Virus genome (UHGV): UHGV-0203498
Direction: 5' to 3' (one strand)
DNA length: 32,670 bases
DNA from: a virus
Shown: positions 3,142 to 25,003 of the stretch, in pieces
Position numbering within the stretch: position 1 is the stretch's first letter
How the letters are laid out: every line of letters begins with the position of its first letter
Position numbers and translations under genes: made by a program
Notes under the pieces: generated by a model
The model's database searches: none
What the model was told of the DNA's origin: nothing
The model's input: only the letters and a program-made list of their open reading frames with translations

Positions 3142-3166
3142 TAAAAAAGGGGCCGTGCTGGCCCCA
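3142..3166 (-). terminator. Rho-independent terminator after the major tail gene
   Basis: Minus strand reads GGGGCC-agcac-GGCCCC followed by TTTTTTATT (plus-strand stem 3149-3154 / 3160-3165, A-run 3143-3148). Confidence 0.6.
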
Positions 3167-3195
3167 TATTATCACTCGCTATTTACGCGACCAAA

Positions 3196-8674: not shown

Positions 8675-8703
8675 GGTTGCACACCAACAACGAGGAAATG
8701 AAA

Positions 8704-9216: not shown

Positions 9217-9221
9217 TTACC

Positions 9222-9255
9222 AAAAAGGGGGCCATTACAGCCCCCGAATTATTTT
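9222..9255. terminator. Bidirectional intrinsic terminator between the DnaN-like gene and the o-spanin gene
   Basis: Stem GGGGGC (9227-9232) / GCCCCC (9240-9245) with loop CATTACA. Flanked by A5 upstream (U5 on the minus strand) and GAATTATTTT downstream. Confidence 0.55.
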
Positions 9256-10772: not shown

Positions 10773-12276
10773 TGTCCGCTACCTTGTCCGGGTCTTCTTC
10801 GGTAGATTCTACCGCATCAGGTGACATTTGAGGCAATGGATTCTGATTTCGCAATTCGTCTTCCACCTGCTCGACGGTTTGCGAGTCGTCGATGACGCCC
10901 TGCGCCATCATCCACTTGATGAAATCAGCCAGGCGGACCGTACCAGTCTGCACACCCGACATCATCGCTGTCATAAGCTGCGCATCAACCGTGATTTCGG
11001 TGTAGAACTTGTTCAGCGTCACTCGCTGGTCCGCGGTGTCTCCAGTGAATAGCTGGACAATTTGCAGCGCACGGTTGAAAGCCTTCTCAACGTTACCGGC
11101 AATAAGTGACAGGATACTGTTATCAGTCTGCGCGTCGTAGGCCGCTTCTGTTGCCGTCTTAGGTGCAGTCCCCTTCTCAACCAGGGCCGCGCCAAGTTTA
11201 GCCATTTGCAACTCGCGGCGCTCGCACAACGCTACCGACAAGTTGCGCTCCTCGGCCTGGAGCAGTTTAGCGTCCATGTTCTGGCCCAGGATAACGCCCT
11301 TAGTTGCACCGAGAGCAATGCCACCCTTCAGGTTTTTGTCCGCCCATGATTGCGTCAGGCCCGTGGTGACAAGGGTCGGCTGGCCCACAATGTGCGCGAT
11401 CTCGGCAACGTCCGCTTCGGCGTTGTAGTGCTTAATATTGATAGACGCAATATCCGCCAGCGGCGCGGCGTCAGGCGATGCGTTGTTGTCCACCGCGCCA
11501 CACCAGCAAAATGGCAGTTGAGTAAGCGCGTTACCGGCTGCGTCCACCAACGGTACAAGGTCGGTTCGGGTGAAGCCACGCGGCAGGTCCATTTGCACCT
11601 CGGACGTGTCAGCGTTGTAAAACCAGCGGCGGGCGTGTGCCTTGCCGTCAATCATGCGAAGCTCGGTCCAGATGGTTACTTCGTGGTTTGCGAAGTCGTC
11701 CGGGTCTTCGGTGCTGATTTCGTCCGTTTCCTTCAGCACGATTAGCGTATCGACCCCGTGGGTCTGCCGCCAGTTGATGATCTGTTCTGCCGTATACAGG
11801 CGGATAAGCGGGCGGTGCGCAGCCATCTCGGCGGCGGTCTGCGGCACTACGTTACCCAGTTCGTCAAAGTTGGCCTGGTGGTCGTAGTCCACCATAAAGC
11901 CAGCGCGGCCAGATTGCAGCACTTCCGACATAGCACCGCGCAGGAGTTGCGGCAACGGCATACCGCTGCCGTCTACGTCATCAATCAGGTCAGCCATCGC
12001 CCCGGAAAGGTCCAGACTTACCGGTTTTGCAAAGGCAACGCCCAACAGCGCGTTAAGTGTGCGAGCGGTGGCGTTCAGGAATACAGCGCGTTGCTTATAC
12101 GCCTTATACCGCGCCCGTGATTTCGGGTCAGTATTGTCGCCGCTGGCGGGATGTGGCAGATACAAAGGGCCGCACGCCTTCACGGCGCGCTCCCCTGCTA
12201 CACAATCCCGGATCATTTTCCACTCTGGCGCGATGCGCGCATAAAGCGGGTGCTGGTTGTCAACGTTAACGGTCAT
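10756..12276 (-). CDS. Portal protein
   Basis: 506-aa ORF directly downstream of the large terminase gene; AAGGAA RBS; acidic C-terminus. Size and position fit a portal. Confidence 0.65.
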   Translation of the reverse strand: MTVNVDNQHPLYARIAPEWKMIRDCVAGERAVKACGPLYLPHPASGDNTDPKSRARYKAYKQRAVFLNATARTLNALLGVAFAKPVSLDLSGAMADLIDDVDGSGMPLPQLLRGAMSEVLQSGRAGFMVDYDHQANFDELGNVVPQTAAEMAAHRPLIRLYTAEQIINWRQTHGVDTLIVLKETDEISTEDPDDFANHEVTIWTELRMIDGKAHARRWFYNADTSEVQMDLPRGFTRTDLVPLVDAAGNALTQLPFCWCGAVDNNASPDAAPLADIASINIKHYNAEADVAEIAHIVGQPTLVTTGLTQSWADKNLKGGIALGATKGVILGQNMDAKLLQAEERNLSVALCERRELQMAKLGAALVEKGTAPKTATEAAYDAQTDNSILSLIAGNVEKAFNRALQIVQLFTGDTADQRVTLNKFYTEITVDAQLMTAMMSGVQTGTVRLADFIKWMMAQGVIDDSQTVEQVEDELRNQNPLPQMSPDAVESTEEDPDKVADNGEND

Positions 12277-12286
12277 GTTCGTTTCC

Positions 12287-13672
12287 TTAGTAGAAGTCTA
12301 CAGTTGGAACAACGGCGATTGGGCGAATCACAGGGAACAAGTGCGCAATTGGATAGCCCGCTGCATCGTTCATGTGGTCCACTCCGGCGGTTTTATCCGG
12401 CTCGCCTTTCTTCAGGTCGTAAACCTGCTGTTCCAGGCATTTCGCTAGTGTAGGGCATTTATCCAGGTTGACAAAATACTGGCGCACGCCCTTCGAGTTG
12501 CACATCATCGTATTCATCGCGATCAATCGGTCTTTCACAGGCGGGTTAACGCTGTCATATTCCACCTCGAAGCCTGCGTCTTCCAGTTGCGCGATATCTG
12601 ACGAAGAGGCGTTAACCGTCTTACGCGACTTGCCGCTGCTATCCGGGTAAACGACAACCCGACCGGCAGCACAATGATCGGGGTAGCGCTCCTCGATCGC
12701 CTCAATCATAGCCGGGGTGTCAAACAGGTCCACAAATTCATCCACTGCGTGGATTTCGTCGCGGAACTCCTTGTTCTCGGTAGTGCGCTGCCGTCTGACG
12801 TACACAACCGCAGCCATTTTCGTGACGTTAAAGTCCATACCAATAATCAACGTGTCATCCGGTTGCACTTCTTCGGTGCTGGCGTTCTCCTCACGGTTGA
12901 ACATCTTGTATACTGCGCCCGACGTAAGGTTGACAAACAGGCCGTTCAGGTACGCATCAATCAGGTTAGCCGGGTACTGACTGCGCAGCGTGTCGATAAA
13001 GTCTGCCGGTAGGTGGTGGTTATCGGTGGTCTTCGCCCGGATCAAACGCTTCTGGCTATCCTTCTCCACTTCAAAAATCTGGTACATCGCCCGGTAGCCT
13101 TCAGGCGTGGATACGATGACAAACTGGCGCACCAGACCCGCACGCAGACGACCAAGCAATTTGTGATACGCCGCAATTGCGACGTCCTGCTTAGTAGTGT
13201 CGAACTCATCGGCAACAATCCACGCGGCGTTAACACCGATAAGGCGGGTATAGTTCTCCATTGACTCACAAATAACGCGCGTCCATTTGCCTTTCACCAG
13301 CACGCTATAAATCTTGTCCTGCTTGTTGAACTTCCACCGGAAGCCAGCCTCGTCGAAAGCCTTCTCCAGCTCCGGATACATGATTTTAACCAGGAGTGGG
13401 ATAGTCGGCTCGGTCACGATGCCGTCATGACCAGGGTTCAGTGTCAGAAGCTGGATGACCTTACGTGCTGCAACCCATGACTTACCACCACCGAAGCCGG
13501 AACACAGACCGAGGATTTTAGTCTTAGTGTCCCGCAGTAGTTCCACCTGGTGCGGAAGGCAATCAGGCTGATACAGGCGGACGGCCTGTGCAACTCGCGT
13601 TGGGCGTGGCGGTCGGTTGCGCTTTGCGATCGCGCGTTCCAGGGCGCGGTGTTCTGCCGCATAGTTGCGCAT
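12287..13672 (-). CDS. Terminase large subunit
   Basis: Walker A GLCSGFGGGKSW and Walker B-like IVADEFD; 461 aa; its start overlaps the small-subunit stop (TAATG). Confidence 0.85.
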   Translation of the reverse strand: MRNYAAEHRALERAIAKRNRPPRPTRVAQAVRLYQPDCLPHQVELLRDTKTKILGLCSGFGGGKSWVAARKVIQLLTLNPGHDGIVTEPTIPLLVKIMYPELEKAFDEAGFRWKFNKQDKIYSVLVKGKWTRVICESMENYTRLIGVNAAWIVADEFDTTKQDVAIAAYHKLLGRLRAGLVRQFVIVSTPEGYRAMYQIFEVEKDSQKRLIRAKTTDNHHLPADFIDTLRSQYPANLIDAYLNGLFVNLTSGAVYKMFNREENASTEEVQPDDTLIIGMDFNVTKMAAVVYVRRQRTTENKEFRDEIHAVDEFVDLFDTPAMIEAIEERYPDHCAAGRVVVYPDSSGKSRKTVNASSSDIAQLEDAGFEVEYDSVNPPVKDRLIAMNTMMCNSKGVRQYFVNLDKCPTLAKCLEQQVYDLKKGEPDKTAGVDHMNDAAGYPIAHLFPVIRPIAVVPTVDFY

Positions 13673-14223
13673 TACTCACCCTGGCCTTTGCCTGTAGGTT
13701 CGACAACGACGTCGCCGTTATCATCTTCGTCATCATCCAGCGGAATATCGTCGCGGACGCCGTGGTTGGCTTTAAGCAGGAACGTAGCGAAGCCCGCCGC
13801 GATGGTGACGCCGCCAGCTTCCATCAGGAAAGTTTTCTGCAATTCCATAGCGTCCGCCATCGCCTCGGCGAACTCCTCATGTGCGCGCGCCCAGCGGTAC
13901 AGGCAGGCGATGCCAACCCCAATATCCGCAGCAAAGCGACCGAGAGTCGGCATCTTGTGGCGGGGAATGACTTGCGCAGCGCCCTTGTCGGAGTAGTTGA
14001 TCTGCCAGGCTACGGCATCGGCAAAATAGCGGCGAAGCTGGTCGCAATACACAGTGCGGTAGTCTGTCGGGCGCCCACATTTGCCGCCTTTACGACGCTT
14101 GCCATATTCGATCTCAGGTCCAAGATTGGTATGTTCGGTTTGCTCGCCTGGTTTACGGCGCGGGGTGACTGCCACTCGACCGTCCAGTTTGGCACGACGG
14201 CCCTTAACTCTGATTTCTGCCAT
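13672..14223 (-). CDS. Terminase small subunit
   Basis: Directly upstream of the large subunit gene. N-terminal basic DNA-binding-like region GRPTDYRTVYCDQLRRYF and an acidic C-terminus. Start taken at ATG 14223; ATG 14244 is also possible. Confidence 0.65.
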   Translation of the reverse strand: MAEIRVKGRRAKLDGRVAVTPRRKPGEQTEHTNLGPEIEYGKRRKGGKCGRPTDYRTVYCDQLRRYFADAVAWQINYSDKGAAQVIPRHKMPTLGRFAADIGVGIACLYRWARAHEEFAEAMADAMELQKTFLMEAGGVTIAAGFATFLLKANHGVRDDIPLDDDEDDNGDVVVEPTGKGQGE

Positions 14224-14353
14224 GATATAAGCCCTTTTATGCATATGCGCCGACCATCGGCAACATAGGAGACGGCCCTGCCATCTAAGGGGGATTATAA
14301 CAGGCACAAAAAAGCCCACCAAATCGGCAGGCTGGGAGGCTTACGGGTTGCCG

Positions 14354-15496
14354 TTACTTCAACATTTCCGGGCTAATGGTTAAGCGCGCTACTTCGCCGT
14401 AATTGGCGCTGTAGGTGATGACGTTGGCACTACGACCGGACATCCAACCGCCGCGGCTTGCATATGCGTCTTTCGCGGCGAGCGTCCGGTGCTGCTCAAC
14501 AATCATGTTACGGGATTCTACAATCTTCTGGTGGTGCAAGTGACCGACATGCGCGTAACTGTACTCGCTTTCGCCAAATGCTTTTCTGAACTTAGCAATC
14601 ATAACCGTCTCGATTGCATCAAAGCGTGCTTTGTGTCCGTGGTGGAAAAACAGCGTGGTTTTACCGTGCCGCACCATCTTGTATACGTCCGGGGACGTGT
14701 CAACATCGACGCGCGGCTCGTTCTCATACAGGGTATTGAACATCTCCGCAAGCCAAATCATACCAGACTCGTCATGGTTGCCCTGGACAATTAGCAGTTT
14801 GACTTTGTGGTGCTTTTGCAGCGCCAGATCAACCACGTTGCGCACCATGCGAATCATGTAGCGCACCAACTTCTGGTATCGGGTGTCCGCGTCCAGAATG
14901 TGACCACTTGCCGGAGTGACGGCATCGAGGCTGTCAAAGTGCGCCATATCCCCGAGGATATTGATTACGGCAGTTCCTGCGTCTGGTGCGCGGGCGAATG
15001 CTTCGACAAACCAGCGGTAGAACAGATCTTCGGCGATTGCCATATCCCAGTCTTCGCCAGTCTCCTCGCCCCATGCCAGCATTCCCAGGTGGAAGTCTGA
15101 CACTGTGTACAGGTTGAGTAGGTCAAGTGCCTGGATCGGGACTGGCGGGGCGCTAACTGGTGCTGCCGGTGTGATTTCGCTGTTCATACCCTCGACAACA
15201 GCGCGCATTGCTTCGAGTTGGCGCTCCTTGTCCTGCTCGGTGATAACCCATGACATGACCTCCTCGCCATTGCCACGCACCAGGGCGGAGACACGCTTGA
15301 CGCCGAATCCATCGGCAACGCGCTTACGGATCACAGCATCGTTGCCGTGTCCAATACCTTTCTTCGACAGTCTGGCTTTGCGCATGTAGACATTCCGAAG
15401 AGCAATGCCGTATTTCTTCGCAATCTCTTTCGATGTAGTGCCAGCTTGCAATTCAGCGATTAATTGCTCGTCGGTAATTTTAGTTTGCGGGTGCAT
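14354..15496 (-). CDS. Helix-turn-helix domain fused to a calcineurin-like metallophosphoesterase (SbcD/Mre11-like motif set)
   Basis: N-terminal HTH-like ITDEQLIAELQAGTTSKEIAKKYGIALRNVYMRKARL. Metallophosphoesterase motifs SDFHLG, GDMAHFD, VQGNHDE, FHHGH and GHLHH. Confidence 0.7.
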   Translation of the reverse strand: MHPQTKITDEQLIAELQAGTTSKEIAKKYGIALRNVYMRKARLSKKGIGHGNDAVIRKRVADGFGVKRVSALVRGNGEEVMSWVITEQDKERQLEAMRAVVEGMNSEITPAAPVSAPPVPIQALDLLNLYTVSDFHLGMLAWGEETGEDWDMAIAEDLFYRWFVEAFARAPDAGTAVINILGDMAHFDSLDAVTPASGHILDADTRYQKLVRYMIRMVRNVVDLALQKHHKVKLLIVQGNHDESGMIWLAEMFNTLYENEPRVDVDTSPDVYKMVRHGKTTLFFHHGHKARFDAIETVMIAKFRKAFGESEYSYAHVGHLHHQKIVESRNMIVEQHRTLAAKDAYASRGGWMSGRSANVITYSANYGEVARLTISPEMLK

Positions 15497-15649
15497 ATTA
15501 ATTTAATTCCTGATTGAGAGGACCGGGGACAATATACCACGGTCGCTATAGTAATTCGCAAATAACCATACCTACGAATGCCGCTGTGGCCCATATTGCC
15601 AATACCCAAATATCATTGCGTGTCATAGTGTGTTACTCCTTCTCGTTGA

Positions 15650-15685
15650 TTGGTTGCAGTATGGTCTCTATGTTGGTTGCAAGTC
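15650..15685 (+). promoter_or_regulatory. ATTGGTTGCA motif pair
   Basis: GATTGGTTGCAG and TGTTGGTTGCAA lie 24 bp apart, immediately beside the 15691-15716 hairpin. Confidence 0.45.
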
Positions 15686-15690
15686 AAGCA

Positions 15691-15716
15691 ATAAAAAGCC
15701 CGGATAATTCCGGGCT
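15691..15716 (-). terminator. Intrinsic terminator downstream of the endolysin-distal small gene
   Basis: Perfect 8-bp stem AGCCCGGA / TCCGGGCT with loop TAAT; on the minus strand it is followed by UUUUAU. Confidence 0.5.
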
Positions 15717-15722
15717 TCATGT

Positions 15723-15893
15723 TTACGCCTCCGGTCCTGCCGGTGGTTCCGGTGCCGCTGGTTCTGGCAGCTTCGCATCAAAGACACCCGCATGACTGAT
15801 AGTGTCAGCGATAATGGCGCGTGCGCCAGGGTCTTCGGTTTTAGCCAGCGCGGCGAGCGCGTCGGCGTTATGATCAAGAATGCTTTTTAACAT
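15723..15893 (-). CDS. Small hypothetical protein (56 aa) downstream of the endolysin gene
   Basis: ATG at 15893 preceded by GAGGAG at 7-nt spacing; sequence MLKSILDHNADALAALAKTEDPGARAIIADTISHAGVFDAKLPEPAAPEPPAGPEA. Confidence 0.45.
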   Translation of the reverse strand: MLKSILDHNADALAALAKTEDPGARAIIADTISHAGVFDAKLPEPAAPEPPAGPEA

Positions 15894-15909
15894 ACTGTGT
15901 CTCCTCGTA

Positions 15910-16401
15910 TTACACTGCGTTACGTCCAATTTTCTCGGCAACGTCCCACTGCTTACCATCGAATAGTGCCTGCCTGCCGATTGCACGACGGACAAGCCCC
16001 TTGAGCACTACCCCGCCTTGCTTGCGGAATTGTGGCAGTGTAGCTCGCACCTTAGCCCAGTCACCCAGTCGCACCGCATCGTCGAAGTCACCGGCTACGT
16101 CGTCCGGCATGACCGGACCCGGGCCAGCATTGATAACCAGGTCCACCAGCGCGTCGAATTGCGCCTGATTAATGCTCGGGTGTGCGTACTTGTTAACCCA
16201 GTTCTCGGCATACGCCACATCGCGCTTGAGTAGCTCCAGCGCTTCCGCTCGGGTAATGCTTCGAGGCGGGTTCGTGCCAGTATGCCCATAGCCCCAGGTG
16301 TACAGGCCGCGTGCCTGCTCTTTCTTAGTCGCGAAATACGGCACTGGGCTGAATTGCTCCCATGCTGCCGTAAATCTTAGACCGTTGTCACTGAATCGCA
16401 T
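15910..16401 (-). CDS. Endolysin, phage lysozyme (GH24-like)
   Basis: N-terminal region AAWEQFSPVPYF...GLYTWGYGHTGT matches the catalytic-Glu and GYGHT region of T4/P22-type lysozymes. Its start overlaps the upstream holin-like stop (ATGCGATTCAGTGA). Confidence 0.8.
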   Translation of the reverse strand: MRFSDNGLRFTAAWEQFSPVPYFATKKEQARGLYTWGYGHTGTNPPRSITRAEALELLKRDVAYAENWVNKYAHPSINQAQFDALVDLVINAGPGPVMPDDVAGDFDDAVRLGDWAKVRATLPQFRKQGGVVLKGLVRRAIGRQALFDGKQWDVAEKIGRNAV

Positions 16402-16633
16402 GTTTTACCCCATTCAAAACAGCATTACGCAGTGTGCGCAATGCAAATAACCAGATTAACGCGGCCCAGGTGGCGTCAGATACGTCTCCTGTTTGCAACA
16501 GACCCACAATACAGGTCATTGCCGTTAGCAGATATAACACCCGACCGAAGAAGCCATCCTGGACGGATGGCGCGTACACGTTAAACAGGGACGACGCCCC
16601 AATAATCACAAACAACAGGACGGTGAACATCAT
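16388..16633 (-). CDS. Holin / antiholin-like membrane protein (two predicted TM segments)
   Basis: Start MMFTVLLFVIIGASSLF at 16633 overlaps the upstream stop (AAATGATG). Hydrophobic segments, located directly upstream of the endolysin gene. Confidence 0.55.
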   Translation of the reverse strand: MMFTVLLFVIIGASSLFNVYAPSVQDGFFGRVLYLLTAMTCIVGLLQTGDVSDATWAALIWLFALRTLRNAVLNGVKHAIQ

Positions 16634-16920
16634 TTTGCGCCCCCCGGAAGGCTGACGGACGCAATTGCCTCCCTGATCCGGGCTGCGATTGGCATCCAAA
16701 AGATCGCGGTTACGAAGCCCAATCCGGCAACAGTGCGCTCACCAGATAAGCCAGCCCACTCGGCAATCGCTGGCGCACCGAAAATGGCGCACAAGAAGCC
16801 GACCACGATATATAACACAAAGTTTAATGGCCCTTTCGTGGCCTCGCCATGAATGCGAGCGCCAACGAAGCCCCCAGCGAGACATGCAAGGGCGAATAAC
16901 CACTCGTTCAGCTTATCCAT
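16630..16920 (-). CDS. Holin-like membrane protein (about three predicted TM segments)
   Basis: 96 aa with hydrophobic segments LFALACLAGGFVGA, FVLYIVVGFLCAIFGAPAI and LGFVTAIFWMPIA; first gene of the holin-endolysin cassette. Confidence 0.55.
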   Translation of the reverse strand: MDKLNEWLFALACLAGGFVGARIHGEATKGPLNFVLYIVVGFLCAIFGAPAIAEWAGLSGERTVAGLGFVTAIFWMPIAARIREAIASVSLPGGAK

Positions 16921-16956
16921 AAAAAAAGTCCCAGTAAGTTTTAACTCACTGGGACT
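16921..16956 (-). terminator. Hairpin plus U7 tract immediately upstream of the holin start codon
   Basis: 8-bp stem GTCCCAGT (16928-16935) / ACTGGGAC (16948-16955) with a 12-nt loop; on the minus strand it is followed by UUUUUUU (16927-16921) and then directly by the ATG at 16920. Confidence 0.45.
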
Positions 16957-16973
16957 ATATCACGCTTGCATAA

Positions 16974-17261
16974 TTAATCGAAAATTGACCACTTACCGAC
17001 GCCTTTCCATTCCCACCCGGATGATCGGATGGCTTCGAATGTTCGACCGCCTATCAAATCCCGATACCACATCCACCACATGCGCAGCCTGGTCGGGTGT
17101 TCCGTGATGCCGCGGCGCTTGTATATCTGGAACGACATGCGGGTAATGCTGGCAGCTTCCACGGCGGGCCATACCAGGCATACCCATATTGCACCCAGCA
17201 CTGCCGCGATGAGGCATAGTCCGCAGGCCAACCCAAACCAATATATCATTTCGTGTAACAT
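16974..17261 (-). CDS. Hypothetical membrane protein
   Basis: N-terminal hydrophobic stretch IYWFGLACGLCLIAAVLGAIWVCLVWPAV; lies in the lysis-proximal small-gene cluster. Confidence 0.4.
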   Translation of the reverse strand: MLHEMIYWFGLACGLCLIAAVLGAIWVCLVWPAVEAASITRMSFQIYKRRGITEHPTRLRMWWMWYRDLIGGRTFEAIRSSGWEWKGVGKWSIFD

Positions 17262-17394
17262 CGTATTGCCCCTTCTGGTTGTCCGATGTGGCGCGCCAAG
17301 GCACGCGCCACGAAGTAATTGCGGAACACTCGCCCGCCTATCTCAAAGCGGTTATGCACGAGCATATCACGGATGGTTGCGCTCATAGCACACC

Positions 17395-17796
17395 CTACCC
17401 CATACGGCAGAAGGCTTGCCAACTAAGGTCGCGGACAGCTTCGGCGTTAGTGCGGGCACGCAGGCAGTATTTGCGGCCCACTCGCTCATAGTTAACCAGC
17501 CCGAAGTACGTCATGCCTCTCTGTATGTTGCCCGCCACGCCGCCAACGCGGGTCTGCATACGAAGGCGATAAAAACCAACGTACTCCACGATCCATAGCT
17601 GCCCGTCGCGAATATCACGCAGCACATCGCCGCGCTCAATATCGTGGGTGAGTACGTCGTATTTCTCCGGCAGATTTGCCTTATCCGCCCACATGACGCG
17701 GTTGCTTGCTTCGTGCAGGAGGCGCACCCAGTTTTCTGTGGTCCGGATCGGCTTCAGTATGCGCCCGTCCGATTTACGGCGGAATAGTAATTTCAT
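17395..17796 (-). CDS. Hypothetical protein
   Basis: 133-aa ORF in a same-strand gene string; its ATG overlaps the upstream small-ORF stop (ATGA). Confidence 0.45.
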   Translation of the reverse strand: MKLLFRRKSDGRILKPIRTTENWVRLLHEASNRVMWADKANLPEKYDVLTHDIERGDVLRDIRDGQLWIVEYVGFYRLRMQTRVGGVAGNIQRGMTYFGLVNYERVGRKYCLRARTNAEAVRDLSWQAFCRMG

Positions 17797-17936
17797 TGCT
17801 CTGTCTCCTCAATCTCATCGGCAGTTTTAGTGTCGCCATCGCACACAGTAGCGATACCGTCCATCTCATAATCTGCTATGCAGGCATCAACAGAAATAAA
17901 CTTCTGCGAGAATCCCGCCATTAGTGCTGGTGTCAT
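17793..17936 (-). CDS. Small hypothetical protein (47 aa), translationally coupled on both sides
   Basis: ATG at 17936 overlaps the stop of the upstream gene and its own TGA overlaps the ATG of the downstream gene. Sequence MTPALMAGFSQKFISVDACIADYEMDGIATVCDGDTKTADEIEETEQ. Below the ORF-track size cutoff. Confidence 0.3.
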   Translation of the reverse strand: MTPALMAGFSQKFISVDACIADYEMDGIATVCDGDTKTADEIEETEQ

Positions 17937-18202
17937 TTGCTCAGTCTCCAGTGTTTGCCTACCCGCTCGACTGCGGGCTTTCGGCGTAATGTAATACGGA
18001 TCCCCATTGGTTGCAAGGAAGTCCGCACCCTGAAATCGTGCTTTGCTGCGAACTGGTGCAAGTAGCGAGTCTGCGTAAGCGGCTTCACATCATCGCGATA
18101 GCTCCAGTACACAGAATCGCCCTCAGTCGCATTCTTAGCCCATATTCGTATGCAGTGTAGGGGAATGCGCCATGAAAGCTGTTTAGCGCGCCTACGGCTC
18201 AT
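17933..18202 (-). CDS. Hypothetical protein
   Basis: 89-aa basic protein; ATG at 18202 preceded by AAGGGG at 6-nt spacing. Confidence 0.4.
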   Translation of the reverse strand: MSRRRAKQLSWRIPLHCIRIWAKNATEGDSVYWSYRDDVKPLTQTRYLHQFAAKHDFRVRTSLQPMGIRITLRRKPAVERVGKHWRLSK

Positions 18203-18211
18203 TCTAGCCCC

Positions 18212-18517
18212 TTATTTCGCAAGCTGAGCGAATAGTTCGCGCTGTGCTTTAATCCGGGCGACGTTTGTCACCGCCTTATCGCCAATACCGAAGCGATATG
18301 CCAGGCGCTCACGGGAGAATGCCTTCGCGTAGCCCTGGATGGCGTTCAGCAGCGAGGCCAGTTTGGCAATCGTGACACCCCTGGCAACGAGTGCACGACG
18401 GAGTGATAGGCGCGTCAGTATCACGGACCGGCACGCATCGTCTTCGTTGCCGTTCAGTGCTCTGGCCTCGTCCAGCTTCGCCACGGCCAGGGTGTAATTC
18501 CAGATTAGTGCTCGCAT
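18212..18517 (-). CDS. Hypothetical protein
   Basis: 101-aa ORF in the same-strand operon. Confidence 0.45.
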   Translation of the reverse strand: MRALIWNYTLAVAKLDEARALNGNEDDACRSVILTRLSLRRALVARGVTIAKLASLLNAIQGYAKAFSRERLAYRFGIGDKAVTNVARIKAQRELFAQLAK

Positions 18518-18711
18518 CGTTCGGTCCTCTTCGTGATGGTTACGCTGTCCAGGAACTGGAAAAGCGCCTCTTGTGCCTTGACGCGCATTGCTTCGTATCG
18601 GCGCTCTTTCTTAAAGTTGCCGAGTAGGTGTGCGGCTCGCGCTTGCAGGTCAGCATTGTTCTCCGCCTCAATCAGTTCTAACAGTTCGTCGACCAGGTCT
18701 TCGTGTTCCAT
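18505..18711 (-). CDS. Hypothetical acidic protein; first gene of the operon
   Basis: ATG at 18711 preceded by AGGAGGA and by the TTGGT-N5-ACCAA palindrome. The upstream region carries a TTGCAG-N16-TTATAT promoter-like arrangement overlapping two ATTGGTTGCA motifs. Confidence 0.45.
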   Translation of the reverse strand: MEHEDLVDELLELIEAENNADLQARAAHLLGNFKKERRYEAMRVKAQEALFQFLDSVTITKRTERCEH

Positions 18712-18732
18712 CGTTCAGTCCTCCTGTTGGTG

Positions 18733-18776
18733 TGCAACCAATATAACAGGGTGCCAGGGTGACTGCAACCAATATT
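18733..18776 (-). promoter_or_regulatory. ATTGGTTGCA motif pair with overlapping promoter-like hexamers upstream of gene 18711
   Basis: On the minus strand: ATATTGGTTGCAGTCACCCTGGCACCCTGTTATATTGGTTGCACACCAACAGGAGG. Confidence 0.45.
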
Positions 18777-18921
18777 AATCACGCGCATGAAAAAGTTGAT
18801 CGCTATCTGCTGAAACTGCAAACTGCATTTTTCACTCTCCATTCTGCAACTCGCATTGGTTGCCGAGTTCATCGACGACCGCAATTTGCATCATGTTGCC
18901 GTGCGTTATGCAATCCCGGAT

Positions 18922-19083
18922 TTTATGCAGTCTCAGACGAGGGGGGTGCCAGACCCCCCGTCTAGTCTGAAAGACTGGGGTGCTGTCCCGCTGTCCCGCT
19001 CCTCTGGAAGCCGCGTCATCCGTGGGCGGGACGGGGTGCTGTCCCGCTTTGTCCCGCCCCTGGTCTGTCCCGCTTTTTGTCCC
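18922..19083. repeat. Copy B of the ~163-bp structured repeat element
   Basis: 18923-18999 is identical to 2128-2203 and 19027-19083 is identical to 2233-2289, in the same orientation, 16.8 kb from copy A. Confidence 0.85.
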
Positions 19084-19132
19084 GCTTACTTTATGCAATA
19101 AAAATGCATAATTATTCACTATATTCACACTA

Positions 19133-19216
19133 CACGGCAACCAATACGACCAGCTAAAAACACGCAATCTGGCAACCAATGCGCGCAGAAATTAACCAAC
19201 ATGGCAACCAATGCGC
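19133..19216 (-). promoter_or_regulatory. Three ATTGGTTGCC motif copies, including an exact 17-bp direct repeat
   Basis: Plus-strand GGCAACCAATGCGCGCA occurs at 19172-19188 and 19200-19216; a third GGCAACCAAT is at 19133-19142. Located downstream of the primase gene stop. Confidence 0.5.
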
Positions 19217-19223
19217 GCAAATT

Positions 19224-21488
19224 TTAATCTTTCAAGTCATCGTCTGTCGCCGAAAGCGTGATTGGGATATCCGATTTGATAACCAAATTAGACGACCCAT
19301 ATATGGCCCCGGTGTGTGGATCTGTGTAAAAACCGAGCACGCCGCGCTCGACCATATCGTCAATTGCCTTCGTCGATGTGCCACCTTTCGCGAGTCCCGC
19401 CTGGCGGACAATTGCCGATTTACTGAATCCAGTATGATCCGGGTTATCTTCCATCAGTTTTTCCAGTGCCGCATAAAGCACTTTTTCTTTTTCTGTGCGC
19501 GGTCCGGCGGTGTTCTCTTCCTTAACTGCGGCTTTGCCCGCGGCCTTCGCCTGTTCGATAGCGAACGGTGCCAGGGCAACCGGTACGAGGTAGAGAGTCT
19601 CGTCGCGTGGCGTGGAGGCGATAGGCTTGACGTCCCAACCGGCAACCACATCGCCGAAGTCAGGCCCAGCGCTGGTGGACTGGTGGGCTTCGAACGCCTC
19701 GGACTTGCGGAGATCCACCTTCACCTTGCACTTGAGCAGGACGAAGCCGCGCGGCGCTTGCTTGATGCCGTTACGAGACTTCTCGTGGTACAGGTTGAGT
19801 TGGCCTGGCTGGTTGTCGTCTGGCTGTTCCAGGAAGAACGCAGAATCGACAGCACCATGAAGCGCGCCGGATCCGCGTGGCGTTCTGCTGCCGTTTGCAC
19901 CTTTAGCCGGGTGGTGGATGACGCCCGCGCTGCCGCCTGTATTTTCCGCAATGGCCTTCAGCGCCTTGACTACCTCGCCCATATCGCTGGCGTTGTTCTC
20001 GTCGAATGGCTTGGCATCGGCGGACCGCAGCGCGACAGTCTGGTTGAGTGAGTCGAATGCCACCAGGCCAACCGGTTCGCCATTCGCGGTGCGATTGATA
20101 AAGCTGATAACTTCGCGCAGGCCAGACTTGCTGGTGATATCCCAGCCGCGTGACTGCAGGTCTATAATGTGCAACTTGTCCAGGTCGTGCTCGTATTTGA
20201 TCTGCAATGCTTCCTTACGCTGGCTGGAGGCTTCGCCGCCTTCCGCATCGAAATAGAAGCAATGGGACTGGACGACCTTCGCACCGCCAAACGGGATACC
20301 AGCGGCAACCGCGCCCATCTGACCCAGCACGTAGAACGACTTACCGATGTTCGACTCACCGGCGAGATACCAGGTCGATTTGAAGTTAACCAGGCCTTCG
20401 ATGATCGGGTCGTGTTTACTGAACAGGGCGACCGGCTCGTTGTCCAGGTCTGCATCTGTGCATTCGCCGAACTCGTCGCCGTCACCGACCGCGTCCACGA
20501 TATGCTCGTAGCATGATTCCACTTCCTCGTCGTCCAGCCCCGGAAGGATGGCGGCGATCTGCTTACGTGACATGTTGTGCGGTTCGACGTTCAGGTGGTC
20601 CGGGATACCGATCAGACGCAGCGCCAGGTGCTGGTGTTTATTCAGTTCTGAGCAACACTCGTTACCGGTGTGCATACACTTGAAACGGATCTCGCCATCC
20701 TTAACCAGGATTGCCGTTGACCCTTCGCCACTGTGCAGGTGTTCGTTAGGACACGGCACTTCATAGCCGCGACCGGATGACAGGGGTTCAAAGCCCGCCT
20801 GGAAGCACCAGTCCAGGATGCCGTCTGCCACACCGCCGTCGCCCTGGGTCAGTTCGTGGCGTACTTCCTCTTTCTCAACTCCCAGCTTGTCAGCCAGGCG
20901 GAGCAGACGACGGACGCGGGCACGCTTGCCGTAGTGGCACTTAACGACAGCCTGCTGGTGCGGCAGGTACATAAGGCGGTTTGTGTCTTTCGTGCAATCG
21001 TCGAAAGCCACATCAGACAGGCCCAGTTGGTCTAACAACGCATACTGGACGCGGCCCAGGTCTTCCGCCGGTACAGGCTTGTCAGTGAGCACCAGGAAAC
21101 GAGCGCAACGCGTGCCACCTTTCAGCGGGTGTCGGTCGCCGGTAGTGGTGTGGAAGACGTGCTCCAGTCCCGCGTCGATGAACGCCTTACGGCAGCGGCG
21201 TAAGGTGCTGGTGTCGGTGCGGTCAATATCGAAGAACAGGATCGAGCGGTCCACCGCACTGGTCTTACGACGCAATCCGTCACGGGTATACGCCACTATG
21301 CCATCAGCCTTACGCTTGCGGCGCGCATACTCGGCTTTATCTTCCGTCTTGTTGATATGCACCGACGATATTTCTTTCGCATCTTTGATAAATTCGAAAA
21401 ATTCATCAGTGGTCATCTGGAAGTTTTCCGCCCTGGCTTTTTCGCCTTTTTTAGCGGGTTTTGTTACAGCGAATTTAATTAAGCTCAT
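19224..21488 (-). CDS. DNA primase / helicase (primase-polymerase-like N-terminal domain, zinc-binding middle region, P-loop ATPase C-terminal domain)
   Basis: N-terminal ILFFDIDRTD (hhhhDhD primase-polymerase-like motif); Cys/His cluster CPNEHLH...CMHTGNECC; Walker A AGESNIGKS and Walker B-like GLVAFDSLN. Confidence 0.8.
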   Translation of the reverse strand: MSLIKFAVTKPAKKGEKARAENFQMTTDEFFEFIKDAKEISSVHINKTEDKAEYARRKRKADGIVAYTRDGLRRKTSAVDRSILFFDIDRTDTSTLRRCRKAFIDAGLEHVFHTTTGDRHPLKGGTRCARFLVLTDKPVPAEDLGRVQYALLDQLGLSDVAFDDCTKDTNRLMYLPHQQAVVKCHYGKRARVRRLLRLADKLGVEKEEVRHELTQGDGGVADGILDWCFQAGFEPLSSGRGYEVPCPNEHLHSGEGSTAILVKDGEIRFKCMHTGNECCSELNKHQHLALRLIGIPDHLNVEPHNMSRKQIAAILPGLDDEEVESCYEHIVDAVGDGDEFGECTDADLDNEPVALFSKHDPIIEGLVNFKSTWYLAGESNIGKSFYVLGQMGAVAAGIPFGGAKVVQSHCFYFDAEGGEASSQRKEALQIKYEHDLDKLHIIDLQSRGWDITSKSGLREVISFINRTANGEPVGLVAFDSLNQTVALRSADAKPFDENNASDMGEVVKALKAIAENTGGSAGVIHHPAKGANGSRTPRGSGALHGAVDSAFFLEQPDDNQPGQLNLYHEKSRNGIKQAPRGFVLLKCKVKVDLRKSEAFEAHQSTSAGPDFGDVVAGWDVKPIASTPRDETLYLVPVALAPFAIEQAKAAGKAAVKEENTAGPRTEKEKVLYAALEKLMEDNPDHTGFSKSAIVRQAGLAKGGTSTKAIDDMVERGVLGFYTDPHTGAIYGSSNLVIKSDIPITLSATDDDLKD

Positions 21489-21498
21489 TGCCGTAGCC

Positions 21499-21828
21499 TT
21501 ACTTAGAAGTTTTATTATTGCGTACCCAGGAGCGCACTGTGCTCTGATTAATTCCGGTCAACTCGGCAATCATCGCCCATGACTTACCTTCGTCGCGCAA
21601 ACGGATAACCTGCTTTTTGTATTCTTCCATTTCTTCATTGTGTTTTTGCAGCTTGCTTGCTGCCGTGCCATTGAGCAATTCAAGCCTGGCGCGTAATTCT
21701 TTTTCGACACTGCGCAGGCGCTCGATTTCAAATAACACCGCACCAACGGCGTCGGTATAAGCCCAGGACCGGCTTGTTTCACCGCTAACAGTTTTCGTTA
21801 ACATTTCGATTGCGTCGTTTACATTCAT
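21499..21828 (-). CDS. Putative DNA-binding regulator (coiled-coil N-terminus, C-terminal helix-turn-helix)
   Basis: C-terminal KSWAMIAELTGINQSTVRSWVRNN is HTH-like. First gene of the primase operon, preceded by GAGGGAAG RBS and the palindrome GTTGGT-N5-ACCAAC (21842-21858). Confidence 0.5.
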   Translation of the reverse strand: MNVNDAIEMLTKTVSGETSRSWAYTDAVGAVLFEIERLRSVEKELRARLELLNGTAASKLQKHNEEMEEYKKQVIRLRDEGKSWAMIAELTGINQSTVRSWVRNNKTSK

Positions 21829-21859
21829 TGCTCTTCCCTCAGTTGGTTAATGACCAACG

Positions 21860-21889
21860 AAACTACACCCAAAACCGCACGGTGTCAAA
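21860..21889 (-). promoter_or_regulatory. Putative sigma70-like promoter for the minus-strand primase operon
   Basis: Minus-strand TTGACA (plus 21884-21889), ~18-nt spacer, TAGTTT (plus 21860-21865). The -10 is weak. Confidence 0.3.
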
Positions 21890-21979
21890 TACTTTGGTTA
21901 TTGAAACGGGCGCGCACGCGTGTAATAATAATTCCGTCTCATTGTCTCTTATTGGTTAGCGCCGTCGCATTTTGCCTTG

Positions 21980-22033
21980 GCGCTTTTTTTTTGAAATTAG
22001 TTGTTGACACCCCACATGCAACCAATCTAATAT
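21980..22033 (+). promoter_or_regulatory. Putative strong sigma70 promoter with upstream T-tract (UP-like element) for the plus-strand early operon
   Basis: TTGACA at 22004-22009, 18-nt spacer, TAATAT at 22028-22033; T9 tract at 21984-21992; the spacer contains GCAACCAAT. Confidence 0.5.
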
Positions 22034-22229
22034 TCACTCCGTCGACAGGATGCAGGACGCAAACTGGAGAGGGGCAACGCAGGGGCCGGATCGAAGTGTC
22101 AGGATTCCCAACCGTGATTATATAACCAGGTCCACTACCCGAACGGGAGAACGCGTAACCTGGCAATATGTTAAGGCCACCGACGAAGTTAACTGCCGAC
22201 ACCTAAACTTAACCAATCGGAGATATACC

Positions 22230-22760
22230 ATGTTTGAGCAAATCGTAAACCTGATCACACGCGGCGTAGTAGCACTGGAAACCATCGCGAAGCATTATGA
22301 AACCGTCGGTGCTGCCGTGGACCCAAAAGCGAACGGCACAGCTAAGAAAGGCAAGGCTAAGCCGGAAACCGAAGTCGAAGACGACGATCAGGACGAAGTA
22401 GAAGATACGCCTAAAGCGAAAAAAGGCGCGGCAAAAGAAACCAAGTCTAAAGGTAAGGCTAAGAAGGAAGTCGTAGAAGATGAAGACGACGAAGCGGAAG
22501 AAGAAGCTCCGGCGAAGTCTAAGAAAGCGAAAGGCAAAGGTAAGAAAGAAGCTGACCCGCTGGCAGAAATGCGCGACGAAATCAAACAGTATGCCGCTAT
22601 TATTGCAGGCGGTGATGATGATGATGCGAACGACGAATTTGATGACCTGCTGGAATCGTATGAAATTAAATCCATCGCCAAGCTGGAAGACGACGACGTC
22701 GAAGACTTCCACAAAGATTTAAAAGAAATCGTCGAAACCTATTTCGAACTGGAAGATTAA
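22230..22760 (+). CDS. Highly acidic, lysine-patch low-complexity protein (first early gene)
   Basis: ATG at 22230 preceded by GGAG at 8-nt spacing; alternating K-rich and D/E-rich blocks (KKGKAKPETEVEDDDQDEVED..., DEDDEAEEEAPAKSKKAKGKGKK). The ORF-track start at 22050 is unlikely. Confidence 0.5.
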   Translation: MFEQIVNLITRGVVALETIAKHYETVGAAVDPKANGTAKKGKAKPETEVEDDDQDEVEDTPKAKKGAAKETKSKGKAKKEVVEDEDDEAEEEAPAKSKKAKGKGKKEADPLAEMRDEIKQYAAIIAGGDDDDANDEFDDLLESYEIKSIAKLEDDDVEDFHKDLKEIVETYFELED

Positions 22761-22766
22761 TATTAT

Positions 22767-22796
22767 CCGGCCCGCTAATCTGCGGGCCTATTTTTA
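22767..22796 (+). terminator. Rho-independent terminator
   Basis: Stem GGCCCGC (22769-22775) / GCGGGCC (22782-22788) with loop TAATCT, followed by TATTTTTA. Confidence 0.6.
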
Positions 22797-22808
22797 GAGG
22801 ACGAGACA

Positions 22809-23060
22809 ATGGCACGCTTCACGCTAATCGAGGCAGTGGATTCACGCGACCAGCGCCCGTACTATTGGCTATTTGAACGCATCGGCAGCTTTCAGTCGCG
22901 AGTTGCCGTAATAGATAAACGCCGCAACACCCCCGCGCAAATTAAGCGCACCACCTTTACTAATCCCGACTTTTATCTTTGGGCTGATTCCAACCTGGAA
23001 TATGTTCGCTTTGCAGTTGCATCCGAAGCAAGAACAATCGACCGATGGGAGACTAAATAA
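22809..23060 (+). CDS. Hypothetical protein
   Basis: 83-aa ORF; GAGGA RBS at 8-nt spacing. Confidence 0.45.
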   Translation: MARFTLIEAVDSRDQRPYYWLFERIGSFQSRVAVIDKRRNTPAQIKRTTFTNPDFYLWADSNLEYVRFAVASEARTIDRWETK

Positions 23061-23248
23061 TGGCTATATTCTTTGTTTTATTTCGTTGCCGTATCACCGG
23101 CGACGAGCGACCGGAAATAATTAGGCATGAGAACTGGCTTTGCTGTTGGGGGAAAGCCTGCGACCTGGCTTTGACAATGAACGAAGATGCGAATCGTGCC
23201 AATGTTAAACATGATTATTACATCGCTCAATTTTCAAGGGTTGGATAA
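23060..23248 (+). CDS. Hypothetical small protein
   Basis: 62-aa ORF coupled through TAATG overlaps at both ends. Confidence 0.35.
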   Translation: MAIFFVLFRCRITGDERPEIIRHENWLCCWGKACDLALTMNEDANRANVKHDYYIAQFSRVG

Positions 23249-24913: not shown

Positions 24914-24923
24914 CCGCTCAGAC

Positions 24924-24950: not shown

Positions 24951-25003
24951 GAACGGGGTGGCTCACAATAACCCCGATACATGTGAAAATGAGGAATTGG
25001 AAA

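What the first reader, a model, noticed from the sequence alone, without database searches (positions are those of the whole stretch)
16918..16956. Terminator-like hairpin and U7 tract abutting the holin start codon
On the minus strand an 8-bp stem with a 12-nt loop and seven U residues ends one nucleotide before the holin ATG, leaving no room for a conventional Shine-Dalgarno sequence. Together with terminators after the capsid and major tail genes, this suggests late and lysis expression depends on antitermination or on a structured leader that times holin translation.
Basis: seen in the sequence. Interest (0 to 1): 0.5.

Follow-up and report, generated by a model that had tools for sequence, protein, structure and literature searches.

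The report
Terminator hairpin with embedded holin promoter
Just before the lysis genes of this E. coli phage sits a strongly conserved terminator hairpin that also buries the holin's ribosome-binding site. A promoter-like -10 box is butted against it, so probably only transcripts that start inside the hairpin can make holin; this is a compact variant of a trick known from phage T4, not a new kind of system.

Summary
On the minus strand, 16956-16927 folds into a 13-bp hairpin with a UAAA loop (-20.4 kcal/mol). Seven U follow and run straight into the holin ATG at 16920.

The window is a Dhillonvirus-like E. coli siphophage. The 53-nt spacer before the holin is 98% identical among relatives, while holin third codon positions are 81% identical. 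One GenBank record (phage WFI) already annotates this terminator.

- An invariant extended -10 box, TGATATAGT (16962-16954), overlaps the foot of the 5' arm. It predicts a start site near 16947, inside the hairpin.
- A weak Shine-Dalgarno, GGGA, lies in the 3' arm at correct spacing. It is homologous to the GGAGGA of Kagunavirus, which has the same box-plus-hairpin layout but no U tract.
- The same "-10 box butted on a terminator" recurs after the major tail gene and after the tape-measure gene.

Best reading (about 0.5): upstream transcripts terminate, or read through with a locked ribosome site (19 versus 3 kcal/mol to open). Transcripts started at the embedded promoter escape both blocks. 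This is phage T4 gene e logic plus a terminator.

I found no antiterminator gene. No transcript ends have been mapped, so the promoter remains an inference.

The parts
16974..17261 (-). Last gene of the upstream transcription unit: a 95-aa conserved membrane-like protein of unknown function, stop TAA at 16976-16974
   Evidence: ORF list; phrog_2531, E = 1.5e-35; no Pfam family
16954..16962 (-). Extended -10 promoter-like box TGATATAGT (TG-n-TATAGT), preceded by an invariant CG. Its last three bases are the first three of the hairpin.
   Evidence: The only exact TGNTATAGT match in the window. Invariant in 27 distinct Dhillonvirus sequences. Kagunavirus has TG[C/G]TATCCT in the same register.
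16944..16950 (-). Predicted transcription start zone, most likely G16947 or A16946, inside the 5' arm of the hairpin. Inferred, not mapped.
   Evidence: Usual 6-8 nt distance from the -10 hexamer (established promoter geometry); sequence
16927..16956 (-). 13-bp hairpin with UAAA tetraloop: the terminator stem and the sequestrator of the ribosome-binding site
   Evidence: -20.4 kcal/mol. Conserved, with a compensated C insertion and A-to-G change in LM40P1.
16929..16932 (-). Weak Shine-Dalgarno-like GGGA in the 3' arm, 8 nt before the AUG
   Evidence: Duplex with the 16S 3' end, -3.9 kcal/mol. Positionally homologous to GGAGGA (-9.3 kcal/mol) in Kagunavirus.
16921..16927 (-). T7 tract: the terminator U tract, which is also the SD-to-AUG spacer and a U-rich leader
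   Evidence: It is 6-7 T in all Dhillonvirus relatives and absent in Kagunavirus.
16630..16920 (-). Holin gene, 96 aa, ATG at 16920
   Evidence: phrog_2359 holin, E = 9e-31; annotated as holin in relatives
16388..16633 (-). Second holin-like gene; its start overlaps the first holin's stop (ATGA)
   Evidence: phrog_2508 holin, E = 1e-26; sequence
15910..16401 (-). Endolysin gene
   Evidence: phrog_7 endolysin, E = 7e-37
15658..15718 (-). Terminator (15718-15695) closing the lysis cassette, followed at once by TTGACT-18-CATACT (15687-15658)
3143..3174 (-). Second copy of the same layout, after the major tail gene: TGATAATAT (3174-3166), hairpin GGGGCC-agcac-GGCCCC (3165-3149), T6 (3148-3143). 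A normal GGAG ribosome site and an ATG at 3126 follow.
   Evidence: Conserved in KarlBarth, WFI and LM40P1, with a changed stem in LM40P1.

Best explanation
This is a three-in-one junction between the helicase/small-ORF unit and the lysis cassette. It works in three steps.

1. Terminator. RNA polymerase arriving from upstream transcribes the whole 13-bp hairpin and the U7 tract. Most of it terminates within the U tract, immediately before the holin AUG.

2. Translational lock. In any read-through RNA the same hairpin holds the weak Shine-Dalgarno (GGGA, in the 3' arm) and abuts the AUG, so the holin is not translated. The second holin gene overlaps the first one's stop codon (ATGA), so it is probably translationally coupled to it (inferred from the overlap).

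3. Embedded promoter. A sigma70-type extended -10 box (TGATATAGT, 16962-16954) overlaps the foot of the 5' arm. A polymerase that initiates there starts near 16947, inside the 5' arm. Its RNA lacks the 5' arm, so it cannot form the terminator. It carries a short open leader (GAGUUAAAACUUACUGGGACUUUUUUUAUG) with a free GGGA and a U-rich tract for ribosome binding. Only locally initiated transcripts therefore express the lysis cassette.

Shown here: the anatomy, its conservation, the folding energies, the recurrence of the layout, and the homologous layout in Kagunavirus.

Inferred: that the box is an active promoter, where the RNA starts, and that termination actually occurs.
For: Terminator anatomy: 13 bp, -20.4 kcal/mol, U7, placed 18 nt after the upstream stop codon. 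The same terminator is annotated independently in GenBank record MK373791.

Conservation: the spacer is 98.2% identical, against 80.7% at holin third codon positions. CGTGATATAGT is invariant in 27 distinct sequences, including the LM40P1 lineage (70% holin identity), while the loop and the positions upstream vary.

Kagunavirus (holin 47% identical) has TG[C/G]TATCCT overlapping the 5' arm of an AUCCUCCAG/CUGGAGGAU hairpin. That hairpin's 3' arm is the SD GGAGGA, 6 nt before the UUG start. TG, T-12, A-11, T-10 and T-7 are kept; the n position and positions -9 and -8 differ. This is the pattern expected of an extended -10 box.

Ribosome-site opening energy for -15..+6: 19.3 kcal/mol on read-through RNA, against 2.7 kcal/mol from a start at 16947 or 6.8 from a start at 16950.

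The lysis cassette is closed by terminators on both sides, and there is no space between the U tract and the ATG. A promoter of its own would therefore have to overlap the hairpin.

Recurrence: in phage WFI exactly 3 of 16 annotated terminators have an extended -10 box butted on the stem. These are the holin, post-major-tail and post-tape-measure sites. At the post-tape-measure site the U tract again abuts the next ATG. The chance estimate is 1e-5 at the genome-wide motif rate and 4e-4 at the intergenic rate.

Extended -10 boxes with at least 5 of 6 hexamer matches are concentrated at intergenic boundaries in sense orientation: 6 of 20 in 5.5% of the KarlBarth genome.

Precedent: in T4 genes e, soc, 49 and I-TevI, a late promoter lies in the 5' strand of a hairpin that sequesters the ribosome site (PMC3014915).
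Against: - No transcript 5' or 3' ends exist for any Dhillonvirus or Kagunavirus in the searched literature.
- The -35 region is poor, 3 of 6 at best.
- Covariation cannot support the helix: 10 of 13 pairs never vary, and the scores are no better than shuffles.
- Non-extended, A/T-rich -10-like hexamers also precede several other terminators, so some of the resemblance may reflect terminator flank composition.
- In Kagunavirus the computed gain in ribosome-site accessibility from the predicted start is small, 10.4 versus 7.6 kcal/mol.
- A plain sigma70 promoter gives no obvious late timing.
- CGUGA could instead pair with UUAUG around the start codon, as in the minimum-free-energy fold.
Confidence: 0.5

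Rival explanations
1. Plain attenuator with no embedded promoter. The hairpin and U7 terminate most upstream transcription. The lysis genes are expressed only from the fraction that reads through, and the hairpin further throttles holin translation. This keeps holin synthesis low and so sets the lysis time. The -10-like box would be incidental or serve another purpose.
For: Terminators also follow the capsid and major tail genes, where stepping expression down is sensible. The capsid terminator has no adjacent -10 box. The holin has a weak SD in Dhillonvirus and a UUG start in Kagunavirus, which fits deliberately low translation. A/T-rich sequences commonly precede terminators here.
Against: It leaves the invariant CGTGATATAGT unexplained, as well as its retention as TGnTATnnT in Kagunavirus while neighbouring bases diverge. 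An opening cost of 19 kcal/mol on top of a strong terminator would leave very little holin. The three-fold recurrence of an extended -10 box in one register with a terminator stem is improbable by chance.
Confidence: 0.25
2. Lambda-Q-like antitermination. A promoter just upstream makes a short RNA that stops at this terminator unless a phage factor modifies the polymerase. The -10-like TGATATAGT would then act as a sigma-dependent pause or loading element in the initially transcribed region.
For: The position is analogous to lambda pR'-tR', directly before the lysis genes and the late operon (own knowledge of lambda; gene order). A -10-like element lies a few bases downstream of candidate upstream hexamers (ATTAAT, AATTAT).
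Against: The upstream hexamers are poor and not conserved: ATTAAG, ATTAAA and AAATAC occur in relatives. No antiterminator family was found in the small ORFs. The 133-aa upstream gene is replaced by an HNH endonuclease gene in relatives. Read-through RNA would still have the holin start locked. Kagunavirus has the same box and hairpin but no terminator to antiterminate.
Confidence: 0.1
3. A DNA-level operator. The 9-bp inverted repeat AGTCCCAGT-N12-ACTGGGACT would be bound by a dimeric phage regulator, for example the HTH protein encoded at 21828-21502, to control transcription through or from this site.
For: It is a perfect 9-bp inverted repeat with arm centres 21 bp apart. A small HTH / sigma70-region-4-like protein is encoded in the same operon. 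Terminator palindromes can double as transcription-factor sites (preprint 10.64898/2026.08.19.745784).
Against: The stem continues through a G.U pair, and LM40P1 has a U.G pair or bulge. These work in RNA on this strand only, not as DNA symmetry. The arm sequence does not recur elsewhere in the window. The U tract and its contact with the AUG are features of RNA function.
Confidence: 0.05

Closest known systems
Phage T4 gene e (lysozyme), soc, 49 and I-TevI: a late promoter inside the 5' strand of a hairpin that sequesters the ribosome site (McPheeters et al. 1986, as reviewed in PMC3014915)
   Same: It guards a lysis gene. Long transcripts from upstream fold the Shine-Dalgarno and start region into a helix. 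A promoter box lies in or at the 5' strand, so locally started RNA lacks that strand and is translatable.
   Different: The T4 promoters are gp55-dependent late promoters (TATAAATA), which give timing; here the box is a host sigma70-type extended -10. In this phage the helix is followed by U7, so it is also an intrinsic terminator, and the U tract replaces the SD-to-AUG spacer. The start site is mapped in T4 and only predicted here.
Promoter-coupled terminators (Fletcher, Grainger et al., bioRxiv 10.64898/2026.08.19.745784)
   Same: The terminator and the promoter of the next tandem unit share the same few tens of base pairs. The junctions at 14333-14294 and 15718-15658 in this window are of exactly that type.
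   Different: In that class the -10 hexamer lies downstream of the T tract and the start is about 10 bp after the termination site. At the holin the order is inverted: the -10 box lies before the stem and the predicted start lies about 21-26 nt before the termination site, inside the hairpin.
Lambda pR'-qut-tR' late control by the antiterminator Q
   Same: A terminator directly precedes the lysis genes at the head of the late operon.
   Different: No Q-like protein was found. There is no conserved promoter upstream of the hairpin. The terminator here touches the holin AUG and sequesters its ribosome site.
Kagunavirus (K1G/K1H-like) holin leader
   Same: It is a homologous element: CGTGnTAT overlapping the 5' arm, an anti-SD/SD hairpin, and a holin of the same family starting a few bases downstream.
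   Different: It has a strong SD (GGAGGA), a UUG start and no U tract, so it is a translational hairpin only. The terminator function appears to be specific to Dhillonvirus.

Membership tests
Intrinsic (Rho-independent) terminator | Stable G+C-containing stem-loop in the RNA | tested here: met
   13 bp, 6 G-C pairs, tetraloop, -20.4 kcal/mol
Intrinsic (Rho-independent) terminator | Uninterrupted U tract immediately 3' of the stem | tested here: met
   T7 at 16927-16921; 6-7 T in all Dhillonvirus relatives
Intrinsic (Rho-independent) terminator | RNA 3' ends in the U tract, or termination in vitro | not testable with these tools
   No term-seq or in vitro data were found. The site is annotated only as a 'putative transcriptional terminator' in MK373791.
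T4 gene e-type promoter-in-hairpin translational gate | The ribosome-binding site is sequestered in a helix on transcripts from upstream | tested here: met
   GGGA lies in the 3' arm and the AUG is 7 nt from the stem. Opening -15..+6 costs 19.3 kcal/mol on read-through RNA.
T4 gene e-type promoter-in-hairpin translational gate | A promoter placed so that the start site falls within the 5' strand, giving RNA that cannot form the helix | tested here: inconclusive
   A conserved extended -10 box sits in the right register and the predicted RNA opens at 2.7-6.8 kcal/mol. The start site is not mapped.
T4 gene e-type promoter-in-hairpin translational gate | The promoter is of a phage-specific late class, which gives timing | tested here: not met
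   The box is sigma70-like (TGnTATAGT). No T4-type TATAAATA is present, and no sigma factor gene was recognised in the window.
Promoter-coupled terminator (Fletcher et al. 2026) | Termination and start sites of tandem units lie within 35 bp on one strand | tested here: inconclusive
   The predicted start near 16947 and the predicted termination at 16926-16921 are about 21-26 nt apart. Both are predictions.
Promoter-coupled terminator (Fletcher et al. 2026) | The -10 hexamer lies just downstream of the T tract, with the start about 10 bp after the termination site | tested here: not met
   The ATG follows the T tract directly and the -10 box lies upstream of the stem.
Lambda Q-type antitermination module | A Q-family antiterminator gene next to the late promoter | tested here: not met
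   No Pfam or PHROG antiterminator match in the ORFs upstream of the holin or in the early small ORFs. Very divergent proteins could have been missed.
Lambda Q-type antitermination module | A constitutive promoter upstream of the terminator that makes a short terminated RNA | tested here: inconclusive
   Only poor, unconserved hexamers lie upstream of the box.
Canonical Shine-Dalgarno-led start | At least 4-5 nt complementary to the 16S 3' end, 5-10 nt before the AUG | tested here: inconclusive
   Only GGGA, at -3.9 kcal/mol including a G.U pair, with spacing of 7-8 nt. Kagunavirus has GGAGGA at -9.3 kcal/mol.

The most novel reading that the evidence does not exclude
Dhillonviruses would use a recurrent three-in-one module in which an extended -10 promoter fires from inside an intrinsic terminator hairpin. 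The 3' arm of that hairpin carries the next gene's Shine-Dalgarno, and its U tract is the SD-to-AUG spacer. The same roughly 45 bp would then stop incoming transcription, silence translation of any read-through RNA, and launch a fresh, translatable transcript.

This is an inverted form of promoter-terminator coupling, with the start upstream of the termination site. It occurs at three late-gene junctions: the holin, after the major tail gene, and after the tape-measure gene. It appears to have evolved from a Kagunavirus-type SD-sequestering hairpin by gain of a U tract.

Polymerase released at the U tract might even re-engage the box about 35 bp behind it. That last point is pure speculation.
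Probability: 0.45. Interest if true: 0.6.

Novelty: new variant of a known kind. Interest (0 to 1): 0.45.

Why it matters
If the embedded promoter is real, the element shows how a small virulent phage that relies on host polymerase can insulate a lethal gene from upstream transcription without a dedicated antiterminator or late sigma factor. One 45-bp sequence would act at once as terminator, translational lock, promoter and ribosome site.

It would extend two known ideas. The first is the T4 gene e hairpin gate. The second is the recently proposed coupling of promoters and terminators. The new geometry has the start site inside the terminator.

It would also be a compact, portable insulator part for synthetic biology. 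In practical terms, it warns annotators that the terminators marked before the holin and minor-tail genes of about 150 sequenced Dhillonviruses may also be promoters. If the promoter is not real, the element is an ordinary conserved terminator and attenuator.

Tried and rejected
- Rfam. Nothing reached a gathering score in the window. With permissive thresholds on 16850-17050, only sub-threshold matches to terminator-ending RNAs appeared (NsiR1 27 bits versus 39; His leader; Spot 42). No known RNA family fits.
- Covariation on the Dhillonvirus alignment is uninformative because the helix hardly varies.
- The metagenome scan and the IMG/VR scans with the holin returned only near-identical Dhillonviruses, the LM40P1 lineage and Kagunavirus. 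No third lineage with the layout was found. The more distant holin relatives (Erwinia RF1, Pantoea MED16) have different upstream regions.
- The repeated 'phage promoters' annotated in Kagunavirus fBC-Eco01 (TTGCGCACCCCA...TACTAT) are unrelated to the holin box.
- The direct-repeat search in the window found no second copy of the hairpin arms.
- An upstream alternative -10 (ATTAAT or AATTAT) was considered and set aside because relatives carry ATTAAG, ATTAAA and AAATAC.
- The two-hexamer promoter scan does not list the site because its -35 is weak.
- Literature searches for Dhillonvirus transcript mapping, and for start sites inside terminators, found nothing relevant.
- Translational coupling from the upstream ORF was rejected: its stop codon is 53 nt before the AUG and 18 nt before the stem.
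- A bidirectional terminator was rejected: on the plus strand the stem is followed by ATATCACG, and no plus-strand gene converges here.

Full report
**What the window is.** Region 15600-17900 matches 157 phage records at 80-90% identity. Almost all are Escherichia or Shigella siphophages of the genus Dhillonvirus (HK578/EK99P-1/KarlBarth type). On the minus strand, gene order follows those genomes:
- an HTH protein and the primase/helicase (21828-19224);
- a 510-nt non-coding gap;
- five small ORFs of unknown function (18711-16974);
- the hairpin;
- holin (16920-16630), a second holin (16633-16388) and endolysin (16401-15910);
- a terminator (15718-15695);
- a phosphoesterase, terminase, portal, capsid and tail genes.

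**Check of the observation.** The minus strand reads TAA ttatgcaagcg TGATATAGTCCCAGTGAGTTAAAACTTACTGGGACTTTTTTT ATG.
- RNA folding gives a 13-bp helix, 16956-16944 with 16939-16927. It has one G.U pair and a UAAA tetraloop, at -20.4 kcal/mol for the hairpin alone.
- The 91-nt context folds with z = -3.5 against shuffles.
- The T run is 16927-16921 and the ATG starts at 16920.
- The terminator scan gives it the longest stem (13 pairs) of the 28 hits in 8000-27000.
- A terminator score using the d'Aubenton-Carafa formula, recalled from memory, is clearly positive at about 32. I give it little weight.
- Phage WFI's GenBank record annotates a 'putative transcriptional terminator' at exactly this place, and 15 others, but no promoters. 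The terminator as such is therefore not new.

**Conservation.** I collected 27 distinct Dhillonvirus sequences from IMG/VR, metagenomes and GenBank.
- The 53-nt spacer is 98.2% identical pairwise among the 25 close relatives. Holin third codon positions are 80.7% identical, and holin first and second positions 97.3%.
- Variation is confined to the base after the stop codon, the loop, and the T count (6 or 7).
- In the LM40P1 lineage (holin 70% identical) the 5' arm gains a C and the 3' arm changes GGGA to GGGG. Nine pairs are kept, with a bulge or a U.G pair.
- Formal pair counting is uninformative. Ten of 13 pairs never vary and the scores equal the shuffles. The helix rests on thermodynamics and conservation, not covariation.
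- Rfam has no family for it.

Directly 5' of the stem, and sharing its first three bases, lies TGATATAGT (16962-16954). This is an extended -10 box, TG-n-TATAGT, with 5 of 6 hexamer matches and A-11 and T-7 present.
- It is the only exact TGNTATAGT match in the window.
- With the preceding CG it is invariant in all 27 sequences. The bases just upstream vary (AAG versus AGT).
- The -35 region is poor, 3 of 6, as is usual for extended -10 promoters.
- Normal promoter geometry puts the start about 7 nt after the hexamer, at G16947 or A16946. That is inside the 5' arm.

**The sister genus shows the same layout.** Kagunavirus holins are 46-50% identical to this one. In 19 Kagunavirus loci (15 distinct sequences), the sequence before the holin is CGTG[C/G]TATCCTCCAG-(about 22 nt)-CTGGAGGATtcatcTTG.
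- An extended -10-like box, TGnTATCCT, again overlaps the foot of a 9-11-bp hairpin.
- The 3' arm is the Shine-Dalgarno GGAGGA, 6 nt before the UUG start.
- There is no T tract.
- Between the genera, TG, T-12, A-11, T-10 and T-7 are kept. The n position and positions -9 and -8 differ. That is the signature of a -10 box rather than of a helix.
- Single changes in the arms give G.U (L049) or lengthen the stem (L044, L045). One breaks a pair (L068).
- Lining up the arms (AGTCC-CAGT/ACTGG-GACT versus ATCCTCCAG/CTGGAGGAT) identifies Dhillonvirus GGGA as the counterpart of the Kagunavirus SD.
- GGGA pairs weakly with the 16S 3' end, -3.9 kcal/mol against -9.3, at a spacing of 7-8 nt.
- So 'no room for a Shine-Dalgarno' is only partly right. 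A weak one exists, inside the stem.

**Consequences for translation.** On RNA coming from upstream, opening positions -15 to +6 of the holin start costs 19.3 kcal/mol. On RNA beginning at 16947 it costs 2.7 kcal/mol, and 6.8 if it begins at 16950. Read-through RNA, by whatever means it arises, would therefore translate holin poorly. The second holin's start overlaps the first one's stop (ATGA), so it is probably coupled to the first.

**The layout recurs.** Two more Dhillonvirus terminators have an extended -10 box butted against the stem.
- After the major tail gene: TGATAATAT|GGGGCC-agcac-GGCCCC-T6 (window 3174-3143). It is kept in KarlBarth and WFI as TGTTAATAT, and in LM40P1 as TGTTAACAT with a different, compensated stem.
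- After the tape-measure gene, outside this window: TGATAAAAT|GGCCCTCAC-N7-GTGGGGGCT-T4-5-ATG. Here the T tract again abuts the next gene's ATG, and a G run in the 3' arm is the only SD. One pair changes from U.G to U-A in LM40P1.
- In WFI exactly these 3 of 16 annotated terminators carry such a box.
- The chance estimate is about 1e-5 using the genome-wide motif rate, or 4e-4 using the higher intergenic rate.
- In KarlBarth, extended -10 boxes with at least 5 of 6 matches fall at intergenic boundaries, in sense orientation, in 6 of 20 cases. Intergenic DNA is only 5.5% of that genome.
- Other junctions in the window have the more usual order, terminator then promoter: 14333-14313 then TGTTATAAT at 14302-14294, and 15718-15695 then TTGACT-18-CATACT. 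This is the 'promoter-coupled terminator' arrangement described in preprint 10.64898/2026.08.19.745784.
- At the holin no base separates the T tract from the ATG. A promoter for the lysis cassette, which is closed by terminators on both sides, can therefore only overlap the hairpin.

**Most likely mechanism (confidence about 0.5).**
- The element terminates transcription from the helicase/small-ORF unit. I rate this part at about 0.8 on its own.
- It locks the holin ribosome site in any read-through RNA.
- It launches, from the embedded extended -10 promoter, an RNA that lacks the 5' arm. That RNA neither terminates nor hides its ribosome site.
- This is the logic established for T4 genes e, soc, 49 and I-TevI, where a late promoter lies in the 5' strand of an inhibitory hairpin (PMC3014915). 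Here it uses a host-type promoter, with a terminator added.
- Shown: the anatomy, conservation, energies, recurrence and cross-genus homology. Inferred: promoter activity, start position and termination.

**Rivals.**
- A plain attenuator that limits transcription and translation of the holin, with an incidental box (0.25). It fits the terminators after the capsid and tail genes and the weak start signals. It does not explain the invariant box or its recurrence.
- Q-like antitermination with the box acting as a pause element (0.1). No antiterminator family was found in ten small ORFs. The upstream hexamers are not conserved. The 133-aa upstream gene is replaced by an HNH endonuclease gene in relatives. 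Kagunavirus has no terminator to antiterminate.
- A DNA operator (0.05). The G.U and U.G pairs argue for RNA on this strand.

**Novelty and interest.** The terminator is already annotated in one record. The gating principle is known from T4, and promoter-terminator overlap has recently been generalised. What appears undescribed in the literature I could search is the inverted geometry, with the start site inside the terminator, fused to the ribosome site and recurring at three junctions. I could find no transcript mapping for these phages. I rate it a new variant of a known kind, of moderate interest, and wholly dependent on mapping RNA ends.

Noticed in passing
window 2128-2325 and 18923-19120 (also 2290-2448): A 198-nt direct repeat at 89% identity. 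One copy lies in the roughly 510-nt non-coding gap between the primase/helicase gene and the small-ORF unit that ends at the hairpin. The other lies before the tape-measure gene. It contains a 46-nt motif in three copies and GGGACGTCCCGCTTGTCCCGCTTT repeats. It may be a duplicated promoter/operator region or an origin-like region.
   Followed up: no
window 3143-3174 (minus strand): A second '-10 box butted on a terminator': TGATAATAT, then GGGGCC-agcac-GGCCCC, then T6, after the major tail gene. A normal GGAG ribosome site and an ATG at 3126 follow. It is conserved in KarlBarth, WFI and LM40P1.
   Followed up: partly
L067 (KarlBarth MZ501088) 14416-14456; L072 (LM40P1) 14480-14520; L076 (WFI) 19852-19892: A third copy of the layout, outside this window. 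The tape-measure stop TGA begins TGATAAAAT; a 9-bp hairpin and T4-5 follow and run directly into the ATG of the minor tail gene. There is no SD other than a G run in the 3' arm.
   Followed up: partly
window 14294-14333 and 15658-15718 (minus strand): Two junctions of the conventional promoter-coupled type. One is a terminator followed within about 10 nt by TGTTATAAT, before the terminase gene. The other is a terminator followed at once by TTGACT-18-CATACT, after the lysis cassette.
   Followed up: partly
window 21502-21828 (minus strand): The 109-aa first gene of the helicase operon has an HTH / Sigma70_r4_2-like domain (Pfam PF08281, 26.8 bits against a cutoff of 25.7; HTH_23, E = 4e-7). It is a candidate regulator of the -35-less promoters, but this was not tested.
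   Followed up: no
window 16422-16444 (minus strand): A conserved hairpin, GCATTGCGC-acact-GCGTAATGC, followed by TGTTTTG. It lies inside the end of the second holin gene, about 20 nt before the endolysin ATG. LM40P1 turns its G.U pair into G-C. It may be a further attenuator or translational element, or simply a coding constraint.
   Followed up: no
window 22346-22760 and 25250-25795 (plus strand): Two genes on the opposite arm encode long acidic and basic repeat stretches, with D/E-rich 9-nt periodic repeats shared between them.
   Followed up: no
window 17395-17796 (minus strand): The 133-aa ORF two genes upstream of the holin (phrog_10243, function unknown) occupies a slot that holds an HNH endonuclease gene in UDS3lw and KarlBarth. 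This slot is variable.
   Followed up: no
L052 (Kagunavirus fBC-Eco01) 8749-8790: A perfect TATAAT lies 1 nt before the terminator hairpin that follows the major capsid gene. The box-on-terminator layout may therefore also occur in Kagunavirus.
   Followed up: no
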